A stretch of 64,000 nt of DNA from sequence record OR896820.1; one strand, 5' to 3'. Positions 19,141-32,711 of this stretch are shown piece after piece. Below the pieces are notes generated by a model, which did no database searches, was not told the DNA's origin, and worked only from the letters and a program-made list of their open reading frames with translations. Made by a program: the position numbers and the translations under genes. Numbering within the stretch: the first letter of the stretch is position 1; each line of letters begins with the position of its first letter. This DNA is from Escherchia phage Stokescottia.

Positions 19141-19545
19141 AGGGAACAGCGAGCCGATTACGCTGAGTGCAGAATCCCAACCGGAGCGCATTGAATAGAG
19201 TCGGTGGGTTAGTTGTAAAACTAGTACACAGGGGGCGGCAATTCCGGTTAGTGGCTAGAACGTGTAAAATGAGGCGTCTGAAACCTCTCCCCTAAACTCT
19301 TCTCTAATTTATAAATAGTGGGGTGTGGAAATCACTTATGTAGTAACACTGCCGTCCTAGTATAATTGGTATTATCAAGCCGTAACTGGTGGAAGATGTA
19401 GGTTCGAATCCTACGGTCGGTAAGAACTGGATAACTGGTGCTTTTAACGTAAAAGCTTCCGAGGTTAGTTGCGCACTGCCTAAACCACGCGGTAGTTGGT
19501 TCCAGACTAACCAACCAGTCTGCTGAATAGTTTTATTACGATTTA
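19141..19545 (+). ncRNA. candidate structured non-coding RNA(s), unassigned
   Basis: Promoter-driven ~400 nt without ORF; contains T-arm-like GTAGGTTCGAATCCTAC and a terminal hairpin GTTGGTT-CCAGACT-AACCAAC followed by T-rich tract. Confidence 0.3.
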
Positions 19546-23632: not shown

Positions 23633-23710
23633 GGTTCTCAAGCTCATATGGTATGAGCACCCGGCTCATAACCGGAAGGTACGTAGGTTCGAATCCTCGG
23701 GGAGCCACCA
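23633..23710 (+). tRNA. tRNA with CAT anticodon (Met or Ile-lysidine type)
   Basis: Acceptor GGTTCTC/GGGAGCC, loop CTCATAA; T-stem only 3 clean pairs; discriminator A, CCA. Confidence 0.55.
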
Positions 23711-24213: not shown

Positions 24214-24290
24214 GGGGGTGTAATCGAATTGGCATAGGTACTGGACTTAAAATTCAGGTTTTGTGGGTTCGAATCCCACCACCACTACCA
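24214..24290 (+). tRNA. tRNA-Leu (anticodon TAA), type-I-like scaffold
   Basis: Acceptor GGGGGTG/CACCACT (one mismatch), 3-bp D-stem with 11-nt loop GAATTGGCATA, loop CTTAAAA, discriminator A, CCA; paralog of 28714..28790 with covarying pair 12:24. Confidence 0.6.
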
Positions 24291-24465
24291 AATTAAGGAA
24301 ATAAGATGTATAGACATCCACCTCCGCCAACACGTCGTTCTAGAGAAGTTATTCTCATGGAATTGACTAAAAACTTCAAGGCAACCCTTGAAGATAGAGA
24401 TCTAGGCACGGATGAAGACATTGATTTTATTTGTAGACTATTAAAGATGAAACTGGAGAAACAAC

Positions 24466-25339: not shown

Positions 25340-25348
25340 ATTAATAAT

Positions 25349-25419
25349 TGGGGTACGCATAGGTTGCAAATGGGCCTCCAAAACCCATGAAAAGGTTTCG
25401 AATACCTTTACCCCTGCCA
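25349..25419 (+). tRNA. tRNA-Trp-like (anticodon CCA), compact D-arm
   Basis: 71 nt; T-arm AAGGT-TTCGAAT-ACCTT, CCA-containing anticodon loop (7 or 9 nt depending on register), 1:72 mismatch, discriminator G, CCA. Confidence 0.45.
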
Positions 25420-25425
25420 AAATTT

Positions 25426-27298: not shown

Positions 27299-27420
27299 TA
27301 AAATTTCAGTGCAGAACACGGAGCTAGCAATTCGGAAGTGCTGACTCATGATAAGCTGCCTATGTACTTGCGAAGCGGTCGTGTCCAAGACTCGGACTCT
27401 TGCACTGAAAACAATCAAAC

Positions 27421-27540
27421 ATTCTAGCGTGGTTGATGGGGAAACCAGCTTGGCGAGGGCAGAAGCTCGTTCGATTCGAGTGAAAGAATGGTTCTCGTAA
27501 GTCCGCACAAGTGATAACAGGTTCGAGTCCTGTCTAGAAT
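27421..27540 (+). ncRNA. tRNA-like element with ~45-nt internal insertion (no encoded CCA)
   Basis: Perfect 7-bp acceptor ATTCTAG/CTAGAAT, D-arm TGGT...ACCA, T-arm ACAGG-TTCGAGT-CCTGT, 120 nt with internal hairpins. Confidence 0.35.
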
Positions 27541-27690
27541 GACACTATAAAGTTTACTTATTATGTAGGTTCCGGTAGATCGGCGGGTCTATTCTGGCAT
27601 TTAAGAGAGGTCTCGCAAACTTCTTTGTCAGCCGTGGGGTTGGTAGCCTCCAGGCGGCCTACACAATAAGTAAATTTATTAAAAATTCAT

Positions 27691-28713: not shown

Positions 28714-28790
28714 CGCGTGATTGATGGAATTGGCATACATACCGTCCTTAGAAGTCGGGTTTTGAGGGTTCGAATCCCTTGTCACGCACC
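28714..28790 (+). tRNA. tRNA-Leu (anticodon TAG), type-I-like scaffold
   Basis: Acceptor GCGTGAT/GTCACGC, same scaffold as 24214..24290, loop CTTAGAA, discriminator A, CCA. Confidence 0.6.
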
Positions 28791-28902
28791 AAATTTGATG
28801 GTCAGAGTAAATTAAACCTACTATCTCGGTTGAGCTGTTTTAATGGGTTCGAATCCCAGCGAGGCGTAACTGCCTGGTGTGATAGAGGCATCATCTTATT
28901 AT
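28791..28902 (+). ncRNA. unassigned RNA element with T-arm-like hairpin
   Basis: ATGGG-TTCGAAT-CCCA motif with no pairing acceptor stem or CCA; adjacent hairpin AGGC-GTAACT-GCCT. Confidence 0.25.
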
Positions 28903-28993
28903 TGGAAGAGCAAATCGAATTGGCGACGAAAACCGCTTGGAAAGTGGCTGACTGGTAAAACGGCTTGAGAGTTCAAATCTCTCCTCTTCCGCC
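28903..28993 (+). tRNA. tRNA-Ser (anticodon GGA), long variable arm
   Basis: Acceptor GGAAGAG/CTCTTCC, loop TTGGAAA, 19-nt variable arm, discriminator G, CCA. Confidence 0.7.
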
Positions 28994-29013: not shown

Positions 29014-29361
29014 ATGCTAGCAAAAGATAAAGCTCTAGAGTTTTTAGCATCTTTAGATGAAGATAAGATTATAGATGCTGCTGAAAAAGCTGGAATGCCA
29101 GATTTAACATATCTGGAACGTGCTATTATTGCTCGTGATAAACTACAGAAAGAGTTTGCTATTGCTCAGGAGGAGTTTTATACTCGCTATAACGCTCTTA
29201 CTAAGCAAATTGAAAATGAGTGTTCTCATACTTGGGGAGTAACAGAAAACCTAGGTAATGATCACGATGGCTGGTCTAAAGTAAAAATTACCTACTACCA
29301 TCGTAGGACTTGTAAAATTTGTGGAAAAGTAGAAAACTTCACTAGTACGAGTGACTATTAG
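29014..29361 (+). CDS. hypothetical protein with C-terminal Cys pair
   Basis: ORF track; CSH...CKICG. Confidence 0.5.
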   Translation: MLAKDKALEFLASLDEDKIIDAAEKAGMPDLTYLERAIIARDKLQKEFAIAQEEFYTRYNALTKQIENECSHTWGVTENLGNDHDGWSKVKITYYHRRTCKICGKVENFTSTSDY

Positions 29362-29374
29362 TATAATAAATACT

Positions 29375-29464
29375 AGAAGATAGGACGTAGTGGTACGTAA
29401 CTGGTCTTGAAAACTAGCCCGCTGTAGTGATACGGTGATGGTTCGACTCCATTATCTTCTGCCA
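29375..29464 (+). tRNA. tRNA-Ser (anticodon TGA), long variable arm
   Basis: Acceptor AGAAGAT/ATCTTCT, loop CTTGAAA, long variable arm, discriminator G, CCA. Confidence 0.75.
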
Positions 29465-29665
29465 ATTAACTATAAGGAAATCTTATGAGCAAAACAGTTA
29501 CTGTAACAATGAAGGATGGTAAAAAATTTAAAGCATGTCTTCATGAAACAGATAAGGGATGGATGGCTTATTTGCCACACCTAGATTCCACCAGGTACGG
29601 AATGACCCAACGTGAAGCTATTGTTGATGCTTTAAATGAGGCTTCTGCTGGTTTATAAAAATTCT

Positions 29666-29796
29666 TGAAGTATGCCGGAATTGGTAGACGGGGCTGCCTA
29701 AAAGGTTTATAGAGAACATCCACTCTCTACAACATACCTCATAAAGCGGCTGAGATAAATGGTCTATCTCGTGAAGGTTCAAGTCCTTCTGCTTCT
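29666..29796 (+). ncRNA. tRNA-like element with ~40-nt insertion in the anticodon region (no encoded CCA)
   Basis: Acceptor TGAAGTA/TGCTTCT (6 pairs), D-arm CCG-GAATTGGTAGA-CGG, helix GCTGC/GCGGC enclosing 48 nt, hairpin GAGATA-AATGGTC-TATCTC, T-arm GAAGG-TTCAAGT-CCTTC. Confidence 0.35.
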
Positions 29797-30026
29797 TGAT
29801 ACATCTATGGCTCAAAGTGTAACGGTGCTATTTGATGCTCTTAGTAAGACTTCCCCGACATGCGTTCGGGAGTAAGCTGCTAAGGCTAGAGTAGAAGAGT
29901 TTCTGAGAGCCGCCACAATTGAAAATTCGTACTCGTCTTGAGCTGCGTGCAATAGGAGATAACTTGATTAGTATTCTAGAACATGCTAATTGAGGAAGGT
30001 TTCGCTAACCCTGCGAGTTTTCAATT

Positions 30027-30103
30027 GTGGCTATATCATAATTGGTTAATGATCCTGATTGTGAATCAGGCCTATGTGGATTCGAGTTCCACTAGCCACC
30101 CCA
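30027..30103 (+). tRNA. tRNA-His (anticodon GTG)
   Basis: Acceptor GTGGCTA/TAGCCAC, loop TTGTGAA, discriminator C, CCA; the 5' acceptor strand can also pair with 29910-29923. Confidence 0.7.
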
Positions 30104-30128
30104 AATTAACTTAAATAGGAAATAATAT

Positions 30129-30329
30129 ATGGCTGATTTCTGCAAACAATGCTCCATTGATATGTGGGGCAGAGATACTGGTGATCTTTCTGGTTTGATT
30201 ACAGAAGCCGAAGTTAAAGAAGGCTACGGTGCTGTTGTAATCTGTGAAGGTTGTGGTGTTATTCGTGTAGATCATGAAGGCAAACGTCTAGAAGAACCAG
30301 AACCAATAGCCACGGTTCCTGTAGAGTAA
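30129..30329 (+). CDS. Cys-rich small protein
   Basis: CKQC...CEGC pattern. Confidence 0.5.
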   Translation: MADFCKQCSIDMWGRDTGDLSGLITEAEVKEGYGAVVICEGCGVIRVDHEGKRLEEPEPIATVPVE

Positions 30330-30337
30330 AGAATTAT

Positions 30338-30413
30338 TGGAGTGTAGATCAATTGGCAGATCGTCGGCCTCTGACTTCGAAGGTTCCTGGTTCGATCCCA
30401 GGCACTCCAGCCA
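30338..30413 (+). tRNA. tRNA-Gln (anticodon CTG)
   Basis: Acceptor TGGAGTG/CACTCCA with U1-A72, D-stem GATC/GATC, loop CTCTGAC, discriminator G, CCA. Confidence 0.6.
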
Positions 30414-30419
30414 AATAAT

Positions 30420-30495
30420 TGGAGAGTAGTGTAACGGTTAGCACAACGGCCTTTGACTCCGTTAATGGTAGGTTCGATTCCTCCTTCTCCAGCCA
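30420..30495 (+). tRNA. tRNA-Gln (anticodon TTG)
   Basis: Acceptor TGGAGAG/TTCTCCA with U1-A72, loop CTTTGAC, discriminator G, CCA. Confidence 0.6.
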
Positions 30496-30503
30496 AACAA
30501 TAA

Positions 30504-30579
30504 GCGGTTAAGCACACGGGTTGTGTCGCAGGCCTTCCAAGCCTCGCTGAGTAGGGTTCGATTCCCTCTAGCCGCTCCA
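30504..30579 (+). tRNA. tRNA-Gly (anticodon TCC)
   Basis: Acceptor GCGGTTA/TAGCCGC, loop CTTCCAA, discriminator T, CCA. Confidence 0.65.
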
Positions 30580-30595
30580 ACTTTAAGGAAACGTT

Positions 30596-30817
30596 ATGCA
30601 CGTTTTTGAGTTTCGTAATAAAAGTACCGATAAACGAGTTATTGTTATTGGAGAAACATACCGAGCATATGAACAAACTGACGGCTCTGTTATCCTGAAT
30701 GATGAGAAAGGGGGTTTTAGCTTTTATCCCAAAGAAACTTACGAAGAATTTCGTACAAAGTTTCTTCTACCAGACTGGCTAGAAGTAGCGCAGCAACGAG
30801 AACCCGAAGATGGCTGA
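30596..30817 (+). CDS. hypothetical protein
   Basis: ORF track. Confidence 0.5.
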   Translation: MHVFEFRNKSTDKRVIVIGETYRAYEQTDGSVILNDEKGGFSFYPKETYEEFRTKFLLPDWLEVAQQREPEDG

Positions 30818-30982
30818 TAACCTAAAAGTCAAGATCGATAAACAAAAGAAACGTGTAGAAGTAGAGATTGGTGAAGAACGTGTAGCCTTCACCTTTGAAT
30901 TTCTACAACAAATGGCAATGACAGTCATGACTGATAAGTCTCCTGTTATTGAAAAAGAAATCCCGTTGAAATAACGGGTTCT

Positions 30983-31069
30983 GCTGGGTTGGCAGAATGG
31001 TTGAATGCACCTGATTTGTAATCAGGAGGAGTAATCCCATTGCAGGTTCGAATCCTGTGCCCAGCACCA
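30983..31069 (+). tRNA. tRNA-Thr (anticodon TGT) with 15-nt variable region
   Basis: Acceptor GCTGGGT/GCCCAGC, 3-bp D-stem with 11-nt loop, anticodon stem CCTGA/TCAGG, loop TTTGTAA, discriminator A, CCA. Confidence 0.6.
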
Positions 31070-31251
31070 ATTTAAGGACTAGTATGTTTAAACTGTTAGT
31101 AGTTATCTGGTATAGTCAATCAAATAGAGCGAATACCTCCCACGTTATAGACTTTAATACTAAAAATGAAGCTGAAAAAGCATATGCTAATTTAATAGAA
31201 CGTAATAAAGAATCTCGTAGTATAGTTTATGAAGTGACTAAACTTTATTAA
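31057..31251 (+). CDS. hypothetical protein
   Basis: ORF track; 5' end overlaps tRNA-Thr, so the true start is probably downstream. Confidence 0.4.
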   Translation: MPSTNLRTSMFKLLVVIWYSQSNRANTSHVIDFNTKNEAEKAYANLIERNKESRSIVYEVTKLY

Positions 31252-31259
31252 AAATTCAT

Positions 31260-31288
31260 TTGCTTTCTCTCTTATTTCTTGTTATAAT
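31260..31288 (+). promoter_or_regulatory. sigma70-type early promoter
   Basis: TTGCTT 31260-31265, TATAAT 31283-31288. Confidence 0.6.
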
Positions 31289-31318
31289 ACTTGTATAAAT
31301 TAATGAGAGGGAAACCAA

Positions 31319-31612
31319 ATGAAACGTTATCTTTCTGTTATGTTCCAAACTGGTGGTCAACGCTATACCTATGAATTTCCATCTTCTTGGAAAATCAAAG
31401 AAGGTGATCAAGTAGTTGTACTAACACCGCGTGATGGGTACAAGGTAGTAACGGTTAAGCAAGTCTTTCCAAAAGATTATACACCATCTAAGTCTATTAA
31501 TTATAAGATGATTCATGGTGTAGTTCGTCAAGTACCCCGAGTGGACATCGAGGTCAAAGTAGATAAAGATGGTAAACTTAAATATACCTCTTGCTTAGAA
31601 GAGTTGCTATAA
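31319..31612 (+). CDS. hypothetical protein
   Basis: ORF track. Confidence 0.5.
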   Translation: MKRYLSVMFQTGGQRYTYEFPSSWKIKEGDQVVVLTPRDGYKVVTVKQVFPKDYTPSKSINYKMIHGVVRQVPRVDIEVKVDKDGKLKYTSCLEELL

Positions 31613-31818
31613 TGAGGATTACTTTTACAGAAAAGATCATGAGTAATGGTGTTATGATCATTACTGCATGGGATGGTAATCAGTGGTGTAGTGTTTCAGG
31701 TATTAAGCCTGAAGAACAAACACTAGAAAATATCTCAAAGATTAAGCGAAGAATGGCAGAACGTGCACGACTTCCAGGTGCACCTAGAAATGGCAAACGT
31801 TCTGCAATTAAATGTTAA
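31591..31818 (+). CDS. hypothetical protein
   Basis: ORF track. Confidence 0.45.
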   Translation: MLRRVAIMRITFTEKIMSNGVMIITAWDGNQWCSVSGIKPEEQTLENISKIKRRMAERARLPGAPRNGKRSAIKC

Positions 31819-31819
31819 T

Positions 31820-31896
31820 GCTTCGGTAGCTTAGCGATCTAAAGCACTCGGCTGATAACCGAGAGATCGGGGGTTTAAATCCCTCCCGGAGTACCA
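31820..31896 (+). tRNA. tRNA-Ile (anticodon GAT)
   Basis: Acceptor GCTTCGG/CCGGAGT, D-stem GCTT/AAGC, loop CTGATAA, T-loop TTTAAAT, discriminator A, CCA. Confidence 0.7.
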
Positions 31897-31992
31897 AATT
31901 TAGGAATTAAGACTATGCGTCCAGGAAAGTTTAAAAAAGCTAATTGGTCTAAAGAGTATAAAGAATACTTACTTAGTCTAGTAAAACATAAC

Positions 31993-32068
31993 AGTTAGTT
32001 GGCAGAGTGGTTATGCACCTCCTTCATACGGAGCGACTACAGTGGTTCAAATCCACTACTAACTACCA
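31993..32068 (+). tRNA. tRNA with CAT anticodon (Met or Ile-lysidine type)
   Basis: Acceptor AGTTAGT/ACTAACT, loop TTCATAC, T-arm AGTGG-TTCAAAT-CCACT, discriminator A, CCA. Confidence 0.6.
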
Positions 32069-32105
32069 TTAAAATAGCTAGAGATAGCTAAATTTAGGAG
32101 CAGCT

Positions 32106-32300
32106 ATGTTAACAATTAAAATAATGTCAGCCAAGAATGGGGAACAGATTCACACAGGCAAAAGTGTAAGCTTTAATCCTAGAAATAAAAGATTGGCTAT
32201 AGTTAGAGTAGACCAAGCCATCTTTTTAAAAGAAGATGAAGTAGCATATGTCATGAACCAAACTGGTAAGACAGTTTCCGTATACTATGGAAAAGTATAA
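32106..32300 (+). CDS. hypothetical protein
   Basis: ORF track. Confidence 0.45.
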   Translation: MLTIKIMSAKNGEQIHTGKSVSFNPRNKRLAIVRVDQAIFLKEDEVAYVMNQTGKTVSVYYGKV

Positions 32301-32342
32301 AGAATAAAGAGCTGAGCCAAATTCTAACATCGGGGAGATCTA

Positions 32343-32711
32343 ATGAAAGCATATCAAAATCTTAAATCTGGCGTAATTAACCTTGTTCATGAAAATCAGA
32401 TTATTCAGCTATACTCCGACAACGGTGAACTTAAACAGAAAGTTCTAGTTGAAGATCTAGAAGGTATCACACCACAATTCGATCCTGAAGCCTTCCGTGA
32501 AGTTAAGGTGGAAGTCGCACCTCAAATCGAAGGTGGTCAGCACCTAAATGTCAATGTGTTAAGTCGTGATCAGCTTTTGGATGCACAGAAACACCCTGAA
32601 AAATACCCTCAATTAACTATCCGTGTATCTGGCTACGCTGTTCGATTTAACGCGCTGACTCGTGAACAACAGAACGACGTTATTAGTCGTACATTTACTC
32701 AGGCGATGTAA
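32343..32711 (+). CDS. grcA: autonomous glycyl radical cofactor (YfiD/GrcA-like)
   Basis: C-terminal [11 protein letters not shown]...[33 protein letters not shown] closely matches the GrcA glycyl-radical domain. Confidence 0.85.

What the first reader, a model, noticed from the sequence alone, without database searches (positions are those of the whole stretch)
29666..29796. Second tRNA-like gene with ~40-nt insertion in the anticodon region
A scaffold shared with several neighbouring tRNAs (3-bp D-stem with GAATTGG-containing 11-nt loop, variable-arm hairpin GAGATA/TATCTC, T-arm GAAGG-TTCAAGT-CCTTC) is interrupted: a 5-bp helix GCTGC/GCGGC encloses 48 nt where a 7-nt anticodon loop is expected. 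No CCA is encoded. Two such elements in one cluster argues against a chance fold.
Basis: seen in the sequence. Interest (0 to 1): 0.7.

Follow-up and report, generated by a model that had tools for sequence, protein, structure and literature searches.

The report
Phage T5 "RNA1" tRNA-like gene
This is the already-annotated but never explained "RNA1" of T5-like phages: a leucine-tRNA look-alike whose anticodon loop is replaced by a conserved, folded 48-base extension, so it almost certainly cannot decode and is not an intron-containing tRNA.

Summary
Window 29666-29797 (+) folds as a class-II cloverleaf in which a 5-bp anticodon stem encloses 48 nt, and no CCA is encoded. The window is a T5-like phage (Tequintavirus). 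The element is the ortholog of the misc_RNA "rna1 / RNA1, tRNA-like stable RNA with unknown functions" in the T5 and BF23 GenBank records, at the same position: tRNA-Ser, small ORF, RNA1, RNAI, RNAIII, tRNA-His.

About 490 phage records carry it, in Tequintavirus, Epseptimavirus, Sugarlandvirus and Hongcheonvirus. Across 33 distinct copies every helix covaries, including both helices inside the "insertion". The 8-nt apical loop ACAUCCAC is essentially invariant.

The bases next to the anticodon stem differ between lineages and restore no common anticodon. There is no group I core and no bulge-helix-bulge motif. So the extra RNA reads as a selected structural extension, not an intron or pseudogene decay.

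The D-arm and T-loop are those of E. coli tRNA-Leu. The discriminator is U, not the A73 that LeuRS needs.

My best reading is a non-decoding tRNA-Leu mimic, excised from the tRNA operon by the tRNA-processing enzymes. Its target is unknown. Published T5 deletion mutants show it is dispensable in the laboratory.

The feature is already known but functionally open. Similar anticodon-arm-expanded tRNA-Leu-like genes turned up in unrelated metagenomic phage contigs.

The parts
29338..29367 (+). Promoter-like site (TTCACT-18-TATAAT) in front of tRNA-Ser(UGA). It is a candidate start of the transcription unit that contains RNA1.
   Evidence: Consensus scan only, 10 of 12 matches. The region holds no more promoter-like sites than its shuffles do, so this evidence is weak.
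29375..29464 (+). tRNA-Ser(UGA), the upstream member of the same gene string.
   Evidence: ARAGORN. The T5 record has the same order.
29485..29658 (+). 57-aa ORF, by position the homolog of T5.063. Its stop codon lies 7 nt before the tRNA-like core.
   Evidence: ORF list. Synteny with T5.063 in AY543070 and ORF trn 2.14 in BF23.
29664..29808 (+). Span equivalent to the annotated T5 misc_RNA rna1 (144 nt in T5, 145 nt here). It is the tRNA-like core plus 2 nt on the 5' side and an 11-nt AU-rich 3' trailer that abuts RNAI.
   Evidence: Alignment of the window with AY543070 30501-30644. 87.6% identity over 129 nt.
29666..29797 (+). tRNA-like core. It comprises a 7-position acceptor stem (U1.U72 mismatch plus 6 bp), the D-arm, the extended anticodon arm, a class-II variable arm, the T-arm, and discriminator U at 29797. 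No CCA is encoded.
   Evidence: Rfam RF00005 25 bits, full length. MFE cloverleaf. Covariation. My covariance model R1 scores 159 bits here; the next best hits in the window are the two Leu tRNAs at about 30 bits.
29675..29691 (+). D-arm CCG-GAATTGGTAGA-CGG. It is near-identical to the E. coli tRNA-Leu D-arm and includes A14, A15 and G18G19.
   Evidence: Alignment with E. coli leuV and leuZ. Invariant in 33 homologs apart from 3 loop positions.
29693..29750 (+). Extended anticodon arm. It consists of the 5-bp stem GCUGC/GCGGC (29693-29697 with 29746-29750) and the 48 nt that stem encloses.
   Evidence: 3 of 5 stem pairs show compensatory changes, and 99.4% of cells are paired.
29703..29739 (+). 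Inner part of the extension. Lower helix AGGU/ACCU (29703-29706 with 29736-29739); apical helix UAGAGA/UCUCUA (29710-29715 with 29724-29729). A-rich internal loops lie on both sides of the lower helix.
   Evidence: Compensatory changes in 2 of 4 pairs of the lower helix and 3 of 6 pairs of the apical helix. The same architecture appears in the MFE folds of the T5 and Pectobacterium-phage copies.
29716..29723 (+). Apical 8-nt loop ACAUCCAC, with the invariant closing pairs G-C and A-U. It is the most conserved part of the extension and is the presumed effector or recognition site.
   Evidence: Invariant in 32 of 33 distinct homologs from four phage genera; T5 itself has ACAUCCGC.
29752..29770 (+). 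Class-II variable arm: 6-bp stem GAGAUA/UAUCUC with the conserved loop AAUGGUC.
   Evidence: 100% of cells paired; 2 pairs show compensatory changes.
29773..29789 (+). T-arm GAAGG-UUCAAGU-CCUUC. The T-loop is identical to that of E. coli tRNA-Leu.
29809..29915 (+). RNAI homolog, directly downstream. It ends in ...GAGAGCC-G-CCA.
   Evidence: 91.6% identical to T5 rnaI. Fold.
29920..30025 (+). RNAIII homolog. It abuts tRNA-His (30027-30103).
   Evidence: 99% identical to T5 rnaIII. Rod-like fold.

Best explanation
The element is the ortholog of bacteriophage T5 'RNA1', a tRNA-Leu-derived, non-decoding tRNA mimic.

Shown:
- It sits in the string tRNA-Ser(UGA), small ORF, RNA1, RNAI, RNAIII, tRNA-His.
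- It keeps a complete tRNA body. The acceptor stem carries a conserved U1.U72 mismatch. The D-arm and T-loop are the host tRNA-Leu type, so the elbow is intact. The variable arm is class II.
- In place of the 7-nt anticodon loop, the anticodon stem continues into a covarying two-helix extension. That extension is capped by an invariant 8-nt loop, ACAUCCAC.

Inferred from established E. coli tRNA processing:
- The RNA is made by host RNA polymerase as part of a polycistronic tRNA/mRNA transcript.
- It is cut out by RNase P at the 5' side and by RNase E plus exonucleases in the AU-rich 3' trailer.
- It is stable because it folds like a tRNA. The 48 nt stay in the mature RNA.

Proposed, the least certain step: it cannot present an anticodon and has U73 and no CCA, so it does not take part in decoding. 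Instead it acts as a decoy or adapter. The tRNA-Leu-like body is bound by a protein that recognises tRNA shape (a host tRNA-targeting factor, LeuRS, or a processing or modification enzyme). The invariant apical loop supplies a second, specific contact. The function is accessory, advantageous in natural hosts but dispensable in laboratory E. coli.
For: Identity:
- The window is 95-99% identical to Tequintavirus genomes.
- AY543070 annotates the syntenic locus as rna1, 'RNA1, tRNA-like stable RNA with unknown functions', followed by rnaI, rnaIII and tRNA-His. BF23 does the same.
- The window copy is 87.6% identical to the T5 copy.

Selection on structure:
- 33 distinct copies give 95.5% of cells paired and 14 pairs with changes on both sides, including both helices of the extension. 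0 of 500 shuffles reach these values, and slid controls give 40-50%.
- The apical loop is invariant.
- BLAST similarity to Klebsiella and Pectobacterium phages stops at the RNA1 borders.
- RNA1 persists where RNAI and RNAIII are not detectable.

Not a decoder:
- 48 nt lie where 7 are expected.
- The flanking loop residues vary and give no common anticodon.
- The Rfam score is below gathering, and standard ARAGORN does not call it.

Leu-type body:
- The D-arm matches E. coli tRNA-Leu(CAG) at 18 of 20 positions, and the T-loop UUCAAGU is identical.
- The phage's own Leu tRNAs differ from it and have 5-nt variable loops.

Accessory role:
- The T5 mutant T5-123 (deletion 29191-32442) removes RNA1 and is viable.
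- The tRNA region is a known hotspot of non-essential deletions (PMC11464382, PMC12483538).

Precedent:
- T5 tRNAs neutralise tRNA-targeting defences (PMC11464382).
- T4 also makes stable tRNA-like RNAs of unknown role from its tRNA cluster (PMC3014915).
Against: - No expression, end-mapping or binding data could be examined here. 'Stable RNA' rests on the wording of the GenBank annotation, and the primary papers from the 1980s are not in the searchable library.
- The decoy or adapter step has no direct support.
- In the PARIS study, the fragments of the T5-123 deletion other than the one carrying tRNA-Pro/fMet/Lys/Val had no effect (PMC11464382). So RNA1 is not the PARIS suppressor.
- No complementary target for the apical loop was found on the transcribed strand of the window.
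- U73 and the absence of CCA argue against productive LeuRS charging, but they say nothing about binding.
- In the Klebsiella-phage copies the acceptor helix has a G.G mismatch, and the MFE fold does not recover the cloverleaf.
Confidence: 0.6

Rival explanations
1. It is an intron-containing tRNA gene, for example tRNA-Leu(UAA). The ~41-48-nt segment would be removed to give a decoding tRNA.
For: - With the intron option, ARAGORN returns a 91-nt tRNA plus a 41-nt intron.
- In T5 itself the 7 nt immediately 5' of the 3' anticodon-stem strand read CUUAAAA, a perfect Leu(UAA) loop.
- The body is Leu-type.
- An unrelated metagenomic element (L113) has flanks that could also rebuild CUUAAAA, and it has A73.
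Against: - The ARAGORN call is a class-II 'tRNA-Phe(AAA)', which is not a sensible tRNA.
- The loop-flanking residues differ among lineages (CAUAAA, UAAAA, GAAAAC, UAAAAA, GACG), so no common anticodon is restored.
- The 'intron' helices covary and its loop is invariant. That pattern is typical of a functional mature structure.
- 48 nt is far too short for a group I intron, and no Rfam intron model matches.
- The internal loops (5-6 nt against 6 nt, and 3 nt against 6 nt) are not a bulge-helix-bulge motif. By established knowledge E. coli has no tRNA-splicing endonuclease.
- U73 is wrong for LeuRS.
- The T5 record describes a 144-nt stable RNA.
Confidence: 0.05
2. It is a decaying tRNA-Leu pseudogene that picked up an insertion and has no function.
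For: - No CCA is encoded, positions 1-72 are a U.U mismatch, and the Rfam score is sub-threshold.
- The tRNA region tolerates deletions (PMC11464382).
- T5 has at least one annotated tRNA pseudogene.
Against: - The element is retained in about 490 phage records from four genera.
- It shows compensatory substitutions in all variable helices and an invariant apical loop.
- Conservation ends at its borders.
Confidence: 0.03
3. It is a cis-acting processing or folding module. Its tRNA shape would recruit RNase P or RNase E to mature the neighbouring RNAI, RNAIII and tRNA-His, or the upstream ORF mRNA. The excised RNA itself would have no role in trans.
For: - RNA1, RNAI, RNAIII and tRNA-His abut with 0-4-nt spacers.
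- A 13-nt perfect inverted repeat links the 3' end of RNAI to the 5' end of tRNA-His. This suggests a tightly coupled processing pathway.
Against: - RNA1 is kept in Sugarlandvirus, and in a Salmonella phage (L016), where RNAI and RNAIII are absent or undetectable.
- A mere RNase P handle would not need an invariant 8-nt loop on a covarying 48-nt extension.
Confidence: 0.12
4. It is a chargeable, non-ribosomal aminoacyl carrier. After 3' trimming and CCA addition it would be aminoacylated, since LeuRS ignores the anticodon. It would then donate the amino acid to a transferase, or sequester a synthetase or EF-Tu.
For: - The tertiary elements that E. coli LeuRS is known to use are present: U8-A14, A15-U48, G18G19, and the Leu-type D-loop.
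- The host CCA-adding enzyme can complete tRNAs that lack CCA. This is established for T4 tRNAs.
Against: - The discriminator is U in the Tequintavirus, Epseptimavirus and Hongcheonvirus copies and A in the Sugarlandvirus copies. By established knowledge A73 is the major LeuRS determinant.
- The U1.U72 mismatch is present.
- The annotated T5 RNA keeps a 10-nt 3' tail rather than CCA.
Confidence: 0.05
5. The region is protein-coding, as some records annotate 'hypothetical protein' across it.
For: - Mechanical ORFs overlap it: 29568-29723 (-), 29618-29815 (-) and 29759-29875 (+).
- Several GenBank records call a CDS here.
Against: - Substitutions are paired across helices rather than codon-patterned.
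- The curated T5 and BF23 records annotate an RNA.
- The ORFs are short and overlap an element that scores as tRNA.
Confidence: 0.01

Closest known systems
Bacteriophage T5 / BF23 RNA1 (misc_RNA rna1, AY543070 30501-30644; AJ604530 3237-3380)
   Same: It is orthologous. The flanking genes are the same, identity is 87-88%, and the cloverleaf with extended anticodon arm and the apical loop are the same.
   Different: The differences are lineage-level substitutions, many of them compensatory. There is a 1-nt indel in the 3' internal loop: window CAUAAA, T5 UAAAA.
E. coli tRNA-Leu (class II; leuV CAG, leuZ UAA)
   Same: The D-arm GGAAUUGGUAGAC, the G-U before the T-stem, the T-loop UUCAAGU, and a long variable arm.
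   Different: - 48 nt instead of a 7-nt anticodon loop.
- U73 instead of A73.
- A U1.U72 mismatch.
- No encoded CCA.
- Unrelated acceptor, anticodon-stem and variable-arm sequences.
- No BLAST-level match in 5,426 E. coli genomes.
Phage T4 rnaC / rnaD (species 1 and 2 RNAs)
   Same: They are small stable RNAs encoded at the end of a phage tRNA cluster. rnaC has a tRNA-like T-arm and acceptor end. Their function is unknown (PMC3014915).
   Different: - There is no sequence or model similarity; my covariance model R1 finds nothing in the T4 locus.
- The T4 RNAs lack the Leu-type D-arm and the RNA1 extension.
T5 RNA2 (window 27420-27545)
   Same: It is the second tRNA-like stable RNA of the same cluster, and it too has an oversized anticodon arm.
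   Different: - It is not a paralog by sequence: there is no R1 hit.
- It has a different D-arm, a short variable region and a branched arm.
- It has no Rfam tRNA hit at E<=1.
Other tRNA mimics: the tmRNA tRNA-like domain, YrlA (Y RNA-like), and viral 3' tRNA-like structures
   Same: They share the principle of a tRNA-shaped module fused to a non-tRNA module, used for something other than ordinary decoding.
   Different: - ARAGORN finds no tmRNA.
- No YrlA or other Rfam family matches here.
- In YrlA and tmRNA the acceptor or anticodon topology is different, and the D-arm is reduced.

Membership tests
Canonical bacterial tRNA (Rfam RF00005 / ARAGORN) | Acceptor, D and T arms in cloverleaf register, with an elbow (G18G19 and a T-loop UUC) | tested here: met
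   Full-length alignment to RF00005. MFE cloverleaf. Covariation in the acceptor and other stems.
Canonical bacterial tRNA (Rfam RF00005 / ARAGORN) | 7-nt anticodon loop with U33 and a defined anticodon on a 5-bp stem | tested here: not met
   The stem encloses 48 nt. Orthologs share no anticodon-loop remnant.
Canonical bacterial tRNA (Rfam RF00005 / ARAGORN) | Score at or above the curated threshold; called by a standard tRNA finder | tested here: not met
   25.0 bits against a gathering score of 29. ARAGORN in default mode does not report it.
Canonical bacterial tRNA (Rfam RF00005 / ARAGORN) | 3' CCA end and aminoacylation | not testable with these tools
   CCA is not encoded, unlike nearly all neighbouring tRNAs. 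Post-transcriptional addition and charging need experiments.
tRNA gene with group I intron | Intron of about 200 nt or more with a P3-P9 catalytic core, inserted in the anticodon loop | tested here: not met
   Only 41-48 extra nt. No intron family matches at E<=10 over 29600-30030.
tRNA gene with group I intron | Exon junction that restores the same 7-nt loop and anticodon in orthologs | tested here: not met
   The flanks differ among lineages. ARAGORN's intron search (-i) gives Phe(AAA) here and arbitrary anticodons across the unrelated IMG/VR tRNA-Leu-like elements.
tRNA gene with archaeal/eukaryal-type (BHB) intron | Bulge-helix-bulge motif: two 3-nt bulges separated by a 4-bp helix | tested here: not met
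   The 4-bp helix AGGU/ACCU is flanked by two-sided internal loops (5-6 nt against 6 nt, and 3 nt against 6 nt), not by single-strand 3-nt bulges (by inspection).
tRNA gene with archaeal/eukaryal-type (BHB) intron | Splicing endonuclease and ligase available in the host or phage | not tested
   By established knowledge E. coli lacks an EndA-type endonuclease. The phage proteome was not screened here.
T5 RNA1 (tRNA-like stable RNA of Tequintavirus) | Sequence homology to T5/BF23 rna1 at the syntenic position (after the T5.063 ORF, before RNAI/RNAIII/tRNA-His) | tested here: met
T5 RNA1 (tRNA-like stable RNA of Tequintavirus) | Accumulates as a stable ~144-nt RNA in infected cells | not testable with these tools
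   Only the wording of the GenBank annotation is available. No primary data were found in the library.
tmRNA | tRNA-Ala-like domain plus a tag reading frame | tested here: not met
   ARAGORN tmRNA search is negative. No Rfam tmRNA hit.

The most novel reading that the evidence does not exclude
RNA1 is one representative of a widespread, undescribed class of phage RNAs. These are class-II (tRNA-Leu-type) tRNA bodies whose anticodon arm has been rebuilt into a long hairpin. They would not decode. They would serve as molecular decoys or adapters, for example against host tRNA-targeting immunity or for capturing a tRNA-binding host enzyme. The apical loop would be the specificity element.

In support, a pattern scan plus covariance-model scan of IMG/VR found 115-160-nt tRNA-Leu-like genes inside the tRNA clusters of many unrelated metagenomic phage contigs. 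Several show the same 'extended anticodon arm' architecture: L113, L132, L135, L048 and L121.
Probability: 0.2. Interest if true: 0.7.

Novelty: already known. Interest (0 to 1): 0.35.

Why it matters
T5-like phages are workhorses of current anti-defence research, and their tRNA cluster has already yielded suppressors of PARIS and of a retron toxin. RNA1 has sat in that cluster, annotated but unexplained, for decades, and most modern genome records omit it or call a spurious ORF over it.

This analysis shows that the 'insertion' is a selected structure with an invariant loop, and that the body copies the host tRNA-Leu. That turns a vague annotation into testable predictions: loop mutants, end mapping, partner pull-down, and fitness on hosts armed with tRNA-targeting systems.

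If the analogous elements in unrelated phages prove functional, they would define a general strategy of non-decoding tRNA mimicry in phages.

Tried and rejected
- **Intron reading.** I tested it with ARAGORN's intron search (-i), an Rfam scan and comparison of loop flanks among orthologs. I rejected it.
- **Host origin by BLAST.** The element with the extension replaced by CTTAAAA gave no match in E. coli genomes at E<=10. The similarity to E. coli tRNA-Leu is visible only in a direct alignment.
- **Antisense target of the apical loop.** The complement GTGGATGT, or the 12-mer with 2 mismatches, does not occur on the transcribed strand of the window. The four other ACATCCAC copies are on the + strand; the one inspected, at 24314, lies inside an ORF. 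The host genome and the rest of the phage genome were not searched.
- **Remote homologs.** The covariance model R1 scores unrelated IMG/VR elements no higher than ordinary tRNA-Leu genes (about 45-53 bits, against 159 for the window). They are therefore analogs, not demonstrable homologs.
- **Similarity to T4 rnaC/rnaD.** None found.
- **Literature.** Seven full-text searches found no functional or transcriptomic study of T5 RNA1.
- **'tRNA-Ser' labels.** In some hit rows this label belongs to the adjacent upstream tRNA, not to RNA1.

Full report
**What is in the sequence.** The stem GCUGC/GCGGC encloses exactly 48 nt, and the 3' end continues UUGAUA with no CCA. ARAGORN in standard mode reports 21 tRNAs in the cluster but not this element. 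The Rfam tRNA model aligns end to end with a 45-nt insert in the anticodon loop. It scores 25.0 bits, under the gathering score of 29. Unconstrained folding returns exactly the cloverleaf with an extended anticodon arm: -36.5 kcal/mol, z = -2.13.

**Where the window comes from, and what the locus is called.** The region is 95-99% identical to Tequintavirus (T5-like) phage genomes. In the curated T5 record AY543070 the syntenic locus is annotated misc_RNA rna1, "RNA1, tRNA-like stable RNA with unknown functions" (30501-30644). It is preceded by tRNA-Ser1 and ORF T5.063 and followed without spacers by rnaI, rnaIII and tRNA-His. The BF23 record has the same annotation. The window copy aligns to the T5 copy over its whole length, with 87.6% identity. 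The same T5 record lists rna2, also a "tRNA-like stable RNA". Most other records leave RNA1 unannotated or place a hypothetical ORF over it.

**Conservation and covariation.** BLAST finds the element in about 490 phage records, mainly phages of Salmonella, Escherichia and Klebsiella, with a few of Citrobacter, Yersinia, Shigella and Pectobacterium. In the more distant genera the match begins and ends at the RNA1 core. I collected 33 distinct copies from Tequintavirus, Epseptimavirus, Sugarlandvirus and Hongcheonvirus.

On the proposed structure, 95.5% of 1,188 pair cells are standard pairs. When the 3' partners are slid by 1-3 columns the figure is 40-50%. 14 of 36 pairs show changes on both sides, against 1-3 when slid. 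No column shuffle out of 500 reaches the observed values. Both helices inside the "insertion" covary:
- AGGU/ACCU has 2 of 4 pairs with double changes.
- The 6-bp apical helix has 3 of 6.

The 8-nt apical loop ACAUCCAC and its two closing pairs are invariant in 32 of 33 sequences; T5 itself has ACAUCCGC. The acceptor, anticodon and variable stems also carry compensatory changes. This rules out a chance fold and a decaying pseudogene. It also shows that selection acts on the extra 48 nt as RNA structure.

**Not an intron.**
- The residues between the anticodon stem and the first inner helix differ between lineages. The 5' side reads CUAAA(A/G), CGAAUA or CCAAUA. The 3' side reads CAUAAA, UAAAA, GAAAAC, UAAAAA or GACG. 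Removing the inner part therefore never restores a common 7-nt loop or anticodon. The T5 copy happens to read CUUAAAA next to the 3' strand, a Leu-UAA-like loop, but the window and the other lineages do not.
- Run in its intron-search mode (-i), ARAGORN places a 41-nt intron that yields a class-II "tRNA-Phe(AAA)". That is an artefact of forcing a loop.
- 48 nt is far below group I intron size, and no intron family matches.
- The inner 4-bp helix is flanked by two-sided internal loops, not by the staggered 3-nt bulges of a bulge-helix-bulge site.
- The T5 annotation describes a 144-nt stable species, which is the unspliced length. I could not reach the primary data.

**What the body resembles.** No tRNA of the window is a close relative. 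Only the D-loop motif GAAUUGG recurs, in the two Leu tRNAs and at 28917, inside the tRNA-like hit at 28904-28991. The variable-arm and T-arm sequences are unique. Aligned with E. coli tRNA-Leu, positions 8-26 match at 18 of 20 (UGCCGGAAUUGGUAGACGGG against UGGCGGAAUUGGUAGACGCG), and the T-loop UUCAAGU is identical. The phage's own decoding Leu tRNAs are 77 nt long with 5-nt variable loops and a different D-loop and T-loop.

RNA1 is therefore a host-type class-II tRNA-Leu body. It keeps the tertiary features that, by established knowledge, E. coli LeuRS uses: U8-A14, A15-U48, G18G19 and the D-loop geometry. It lacks the major determinant A73, since the discriminator here is U. It also has a conserved U1.U72 mismatch (29 of 33 copies; G.U in the Klebsiella phages) and no CCA.

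**Context and processing (inferred).** A promoter-like site lies just upstream of tRNA-Ser(UGA) (weak evidence). The order is tRNA-Ser, a 57-aa ORF, RNA1, an 11-nt AU-rich trailer, RNAI, RNAIII, tRNA-His. From established E. coli tRNA maturation, I infer excision by RNase P at the 5' side and by RNase E plus exonucleases in the trailer. RNA1 is retained in Sugarlandvirus, and in one Salmonella phage, where RNAI and RNAIII are not detectable. So it is not merely a processing handle for those neighbours.

**Dispensability and known roles of the neighbours.** The T5 tRNA region is a hotspot of non-essential deletions (PMC12483538). The mutant T5-123 (deletion 29191-32442 of AY543070) removes RNA1 and is viable. 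In the PARIS study only the fragment with tRNA-Pro/fMet/Lys/Val rescued infection, so RNA1 is not the PARIS suppressor (PMC11464382). The same work, and the retron work it cites, show that T5 tRNAs counter tRNA-targeting defences. That makes an accessory, host-specific role plausible for RNA1, but nothing proves it.

**Best explanation.** I read RNA1 as a non-decoding tRNA-Leu mimic. The tRNA body gives it processing, stability and recognition by tRNA-shape-binding proteins. The rebuilt anticodon arm prevents decoding and presents an invariant loop as a specific contact.
- Identity with T5 RNA1 and the architecture are well supported; my confidence is about 0.9.
- That the 48 nt are retained and functional is likely, at about 0.8.
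- The decoy or adapter mechanism is a hypothesis, at about 0.3.

A search for an antisense target of the loop in the window was negative.

**Wider observation.** A scan of IMG/VR for a Leu-type D-arm followed 70-100 nt later by GGTTCRA returned more than 120 loci. The RNA1 covariance model then found full-length hits of 115-160 nt in many contigs unrelated to T5.
- Several pass the Rfam tRNA threshold and sit in tRNA clusters.
- Some have the same architecture as RNA1: a class-II cloverleaf whose anticodon stem continues into a long hairpin. Examples are L113, L132, L135, L048 and L121.
- Others carry the extra RNA in the variable region, for example L142, L093 and L066.
- Their scores equal those of ordinary tRNA-Leu genes, so they are analogs rather than demonstrable homologs.
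- ARAGORN's intron search (-i) gives them arbitrary anticodons.

I did not test these families for covariation.

**Verdict.** The finding is real and correctly recognised as tRNA-like. It is the already-annotated T5 RNA1, so the feature is known. The intron or splicing reading is not supported. The function remains open and is now sharply testable.

Noticed in passing
window 27420-27545 (+): Homolog of T5 rna2 ('RNA2, tRNA-like stable RNA'). Its fold is cloverleaf-like, with an 8-bp acceptor, T-arm ACAGG-UUCGAGU-CCUGU and a long branched anticodon arm. Rfam tRNA (E<=1), ARAGORN's intron search (-i) and the RNA1 covariance model all miss it. It is followed by the RNAIV homolog.
   Followed up: partly
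window 29809-29915 and 29920-30025 (+): Homologs of T5 RNAI and RNAIII (stable RNAs of unknown function). RNAI starts GGCUC... and ends ...GAGCC-G-CCA, an acceptor-like helix with an encoded CCA. RNAIII folds as a rod closed by its 5' and 3' ends. No Rfam family matches either.
   Followed up: partly
window 29913-29925 and 30018-30030 (+): A perfect 13-nt inverted repeat, CCACAATTGAAAA / TTTTCAATTGTGG. It would pair the 3' end of RNAI with the first four bases of tRNA-His across RNAIII. This could be an alternative precursor structure or a processing site.
   Followed up: no
window 24214-24290 and 28715-28791 (+): The phage's two decoding Leu tRNAs (UAA and UAG) are only 77 nt long, with a 5-nt variable loop (class-I-like), unlike bacterial class-II tRNA-Leu. 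The UAG one has a U.U mismatch in the anticodon stem. They contrast with the host-type class-II body of RNA1.
   Followed up: partly
window 19351-19422, 23633-23707, 30503-30576, 28904-28991 (+): tRNA or tRNA-like genes found by Rfam or by the RNA1 covariance model but not by ARAGORN in default mode. By synteny with T5, 23633 is tRNA-Ile2(CAU), 30503 is tRNA-Gly(UCC) and 28904 is tRNA-Ser2(GGA). One GenBank record annotates the last two on the opposite strand.
   Followed up: no
window 25340-25425 (+): An 86-nt gap between tRNA-Glu and tRNA-Phe, where T5 has a 71-nt tRNA-Trp. Neither ARAGORN nor Rfam reports a tRNA there in this phage.
   Followed up: no
IMG/VR loci, e.g. L113:118-235(-), L132:9278-9410(-), L135:1408-1546(+), L048:5454-5569(+), L121:615-736(-); also L142:2782-2927(-), L093:2678-2821(+): Unrelated metagenomic phage contigs carry tRNA-Leu-type genes of 115-160 nt in their tRNA clusters. 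The extra 30-70 nt form either an extended anticodon arm (as in RNA1) or a giant variable region. Several exceed the Rfam tRNA threshold. L113 and L135 have A73, and their flanks could rebuild Leu anticodon loops.
   Followed up: partly
L094:896-1016 (-): A sub-threshold Rfam YrlA (Y RNA-like) match at 34 bits (gathering score 69). It lies next to one of the long tRNA-Leu-like genes in a 132-kb metagenomic phage contig.
   Followed up: no
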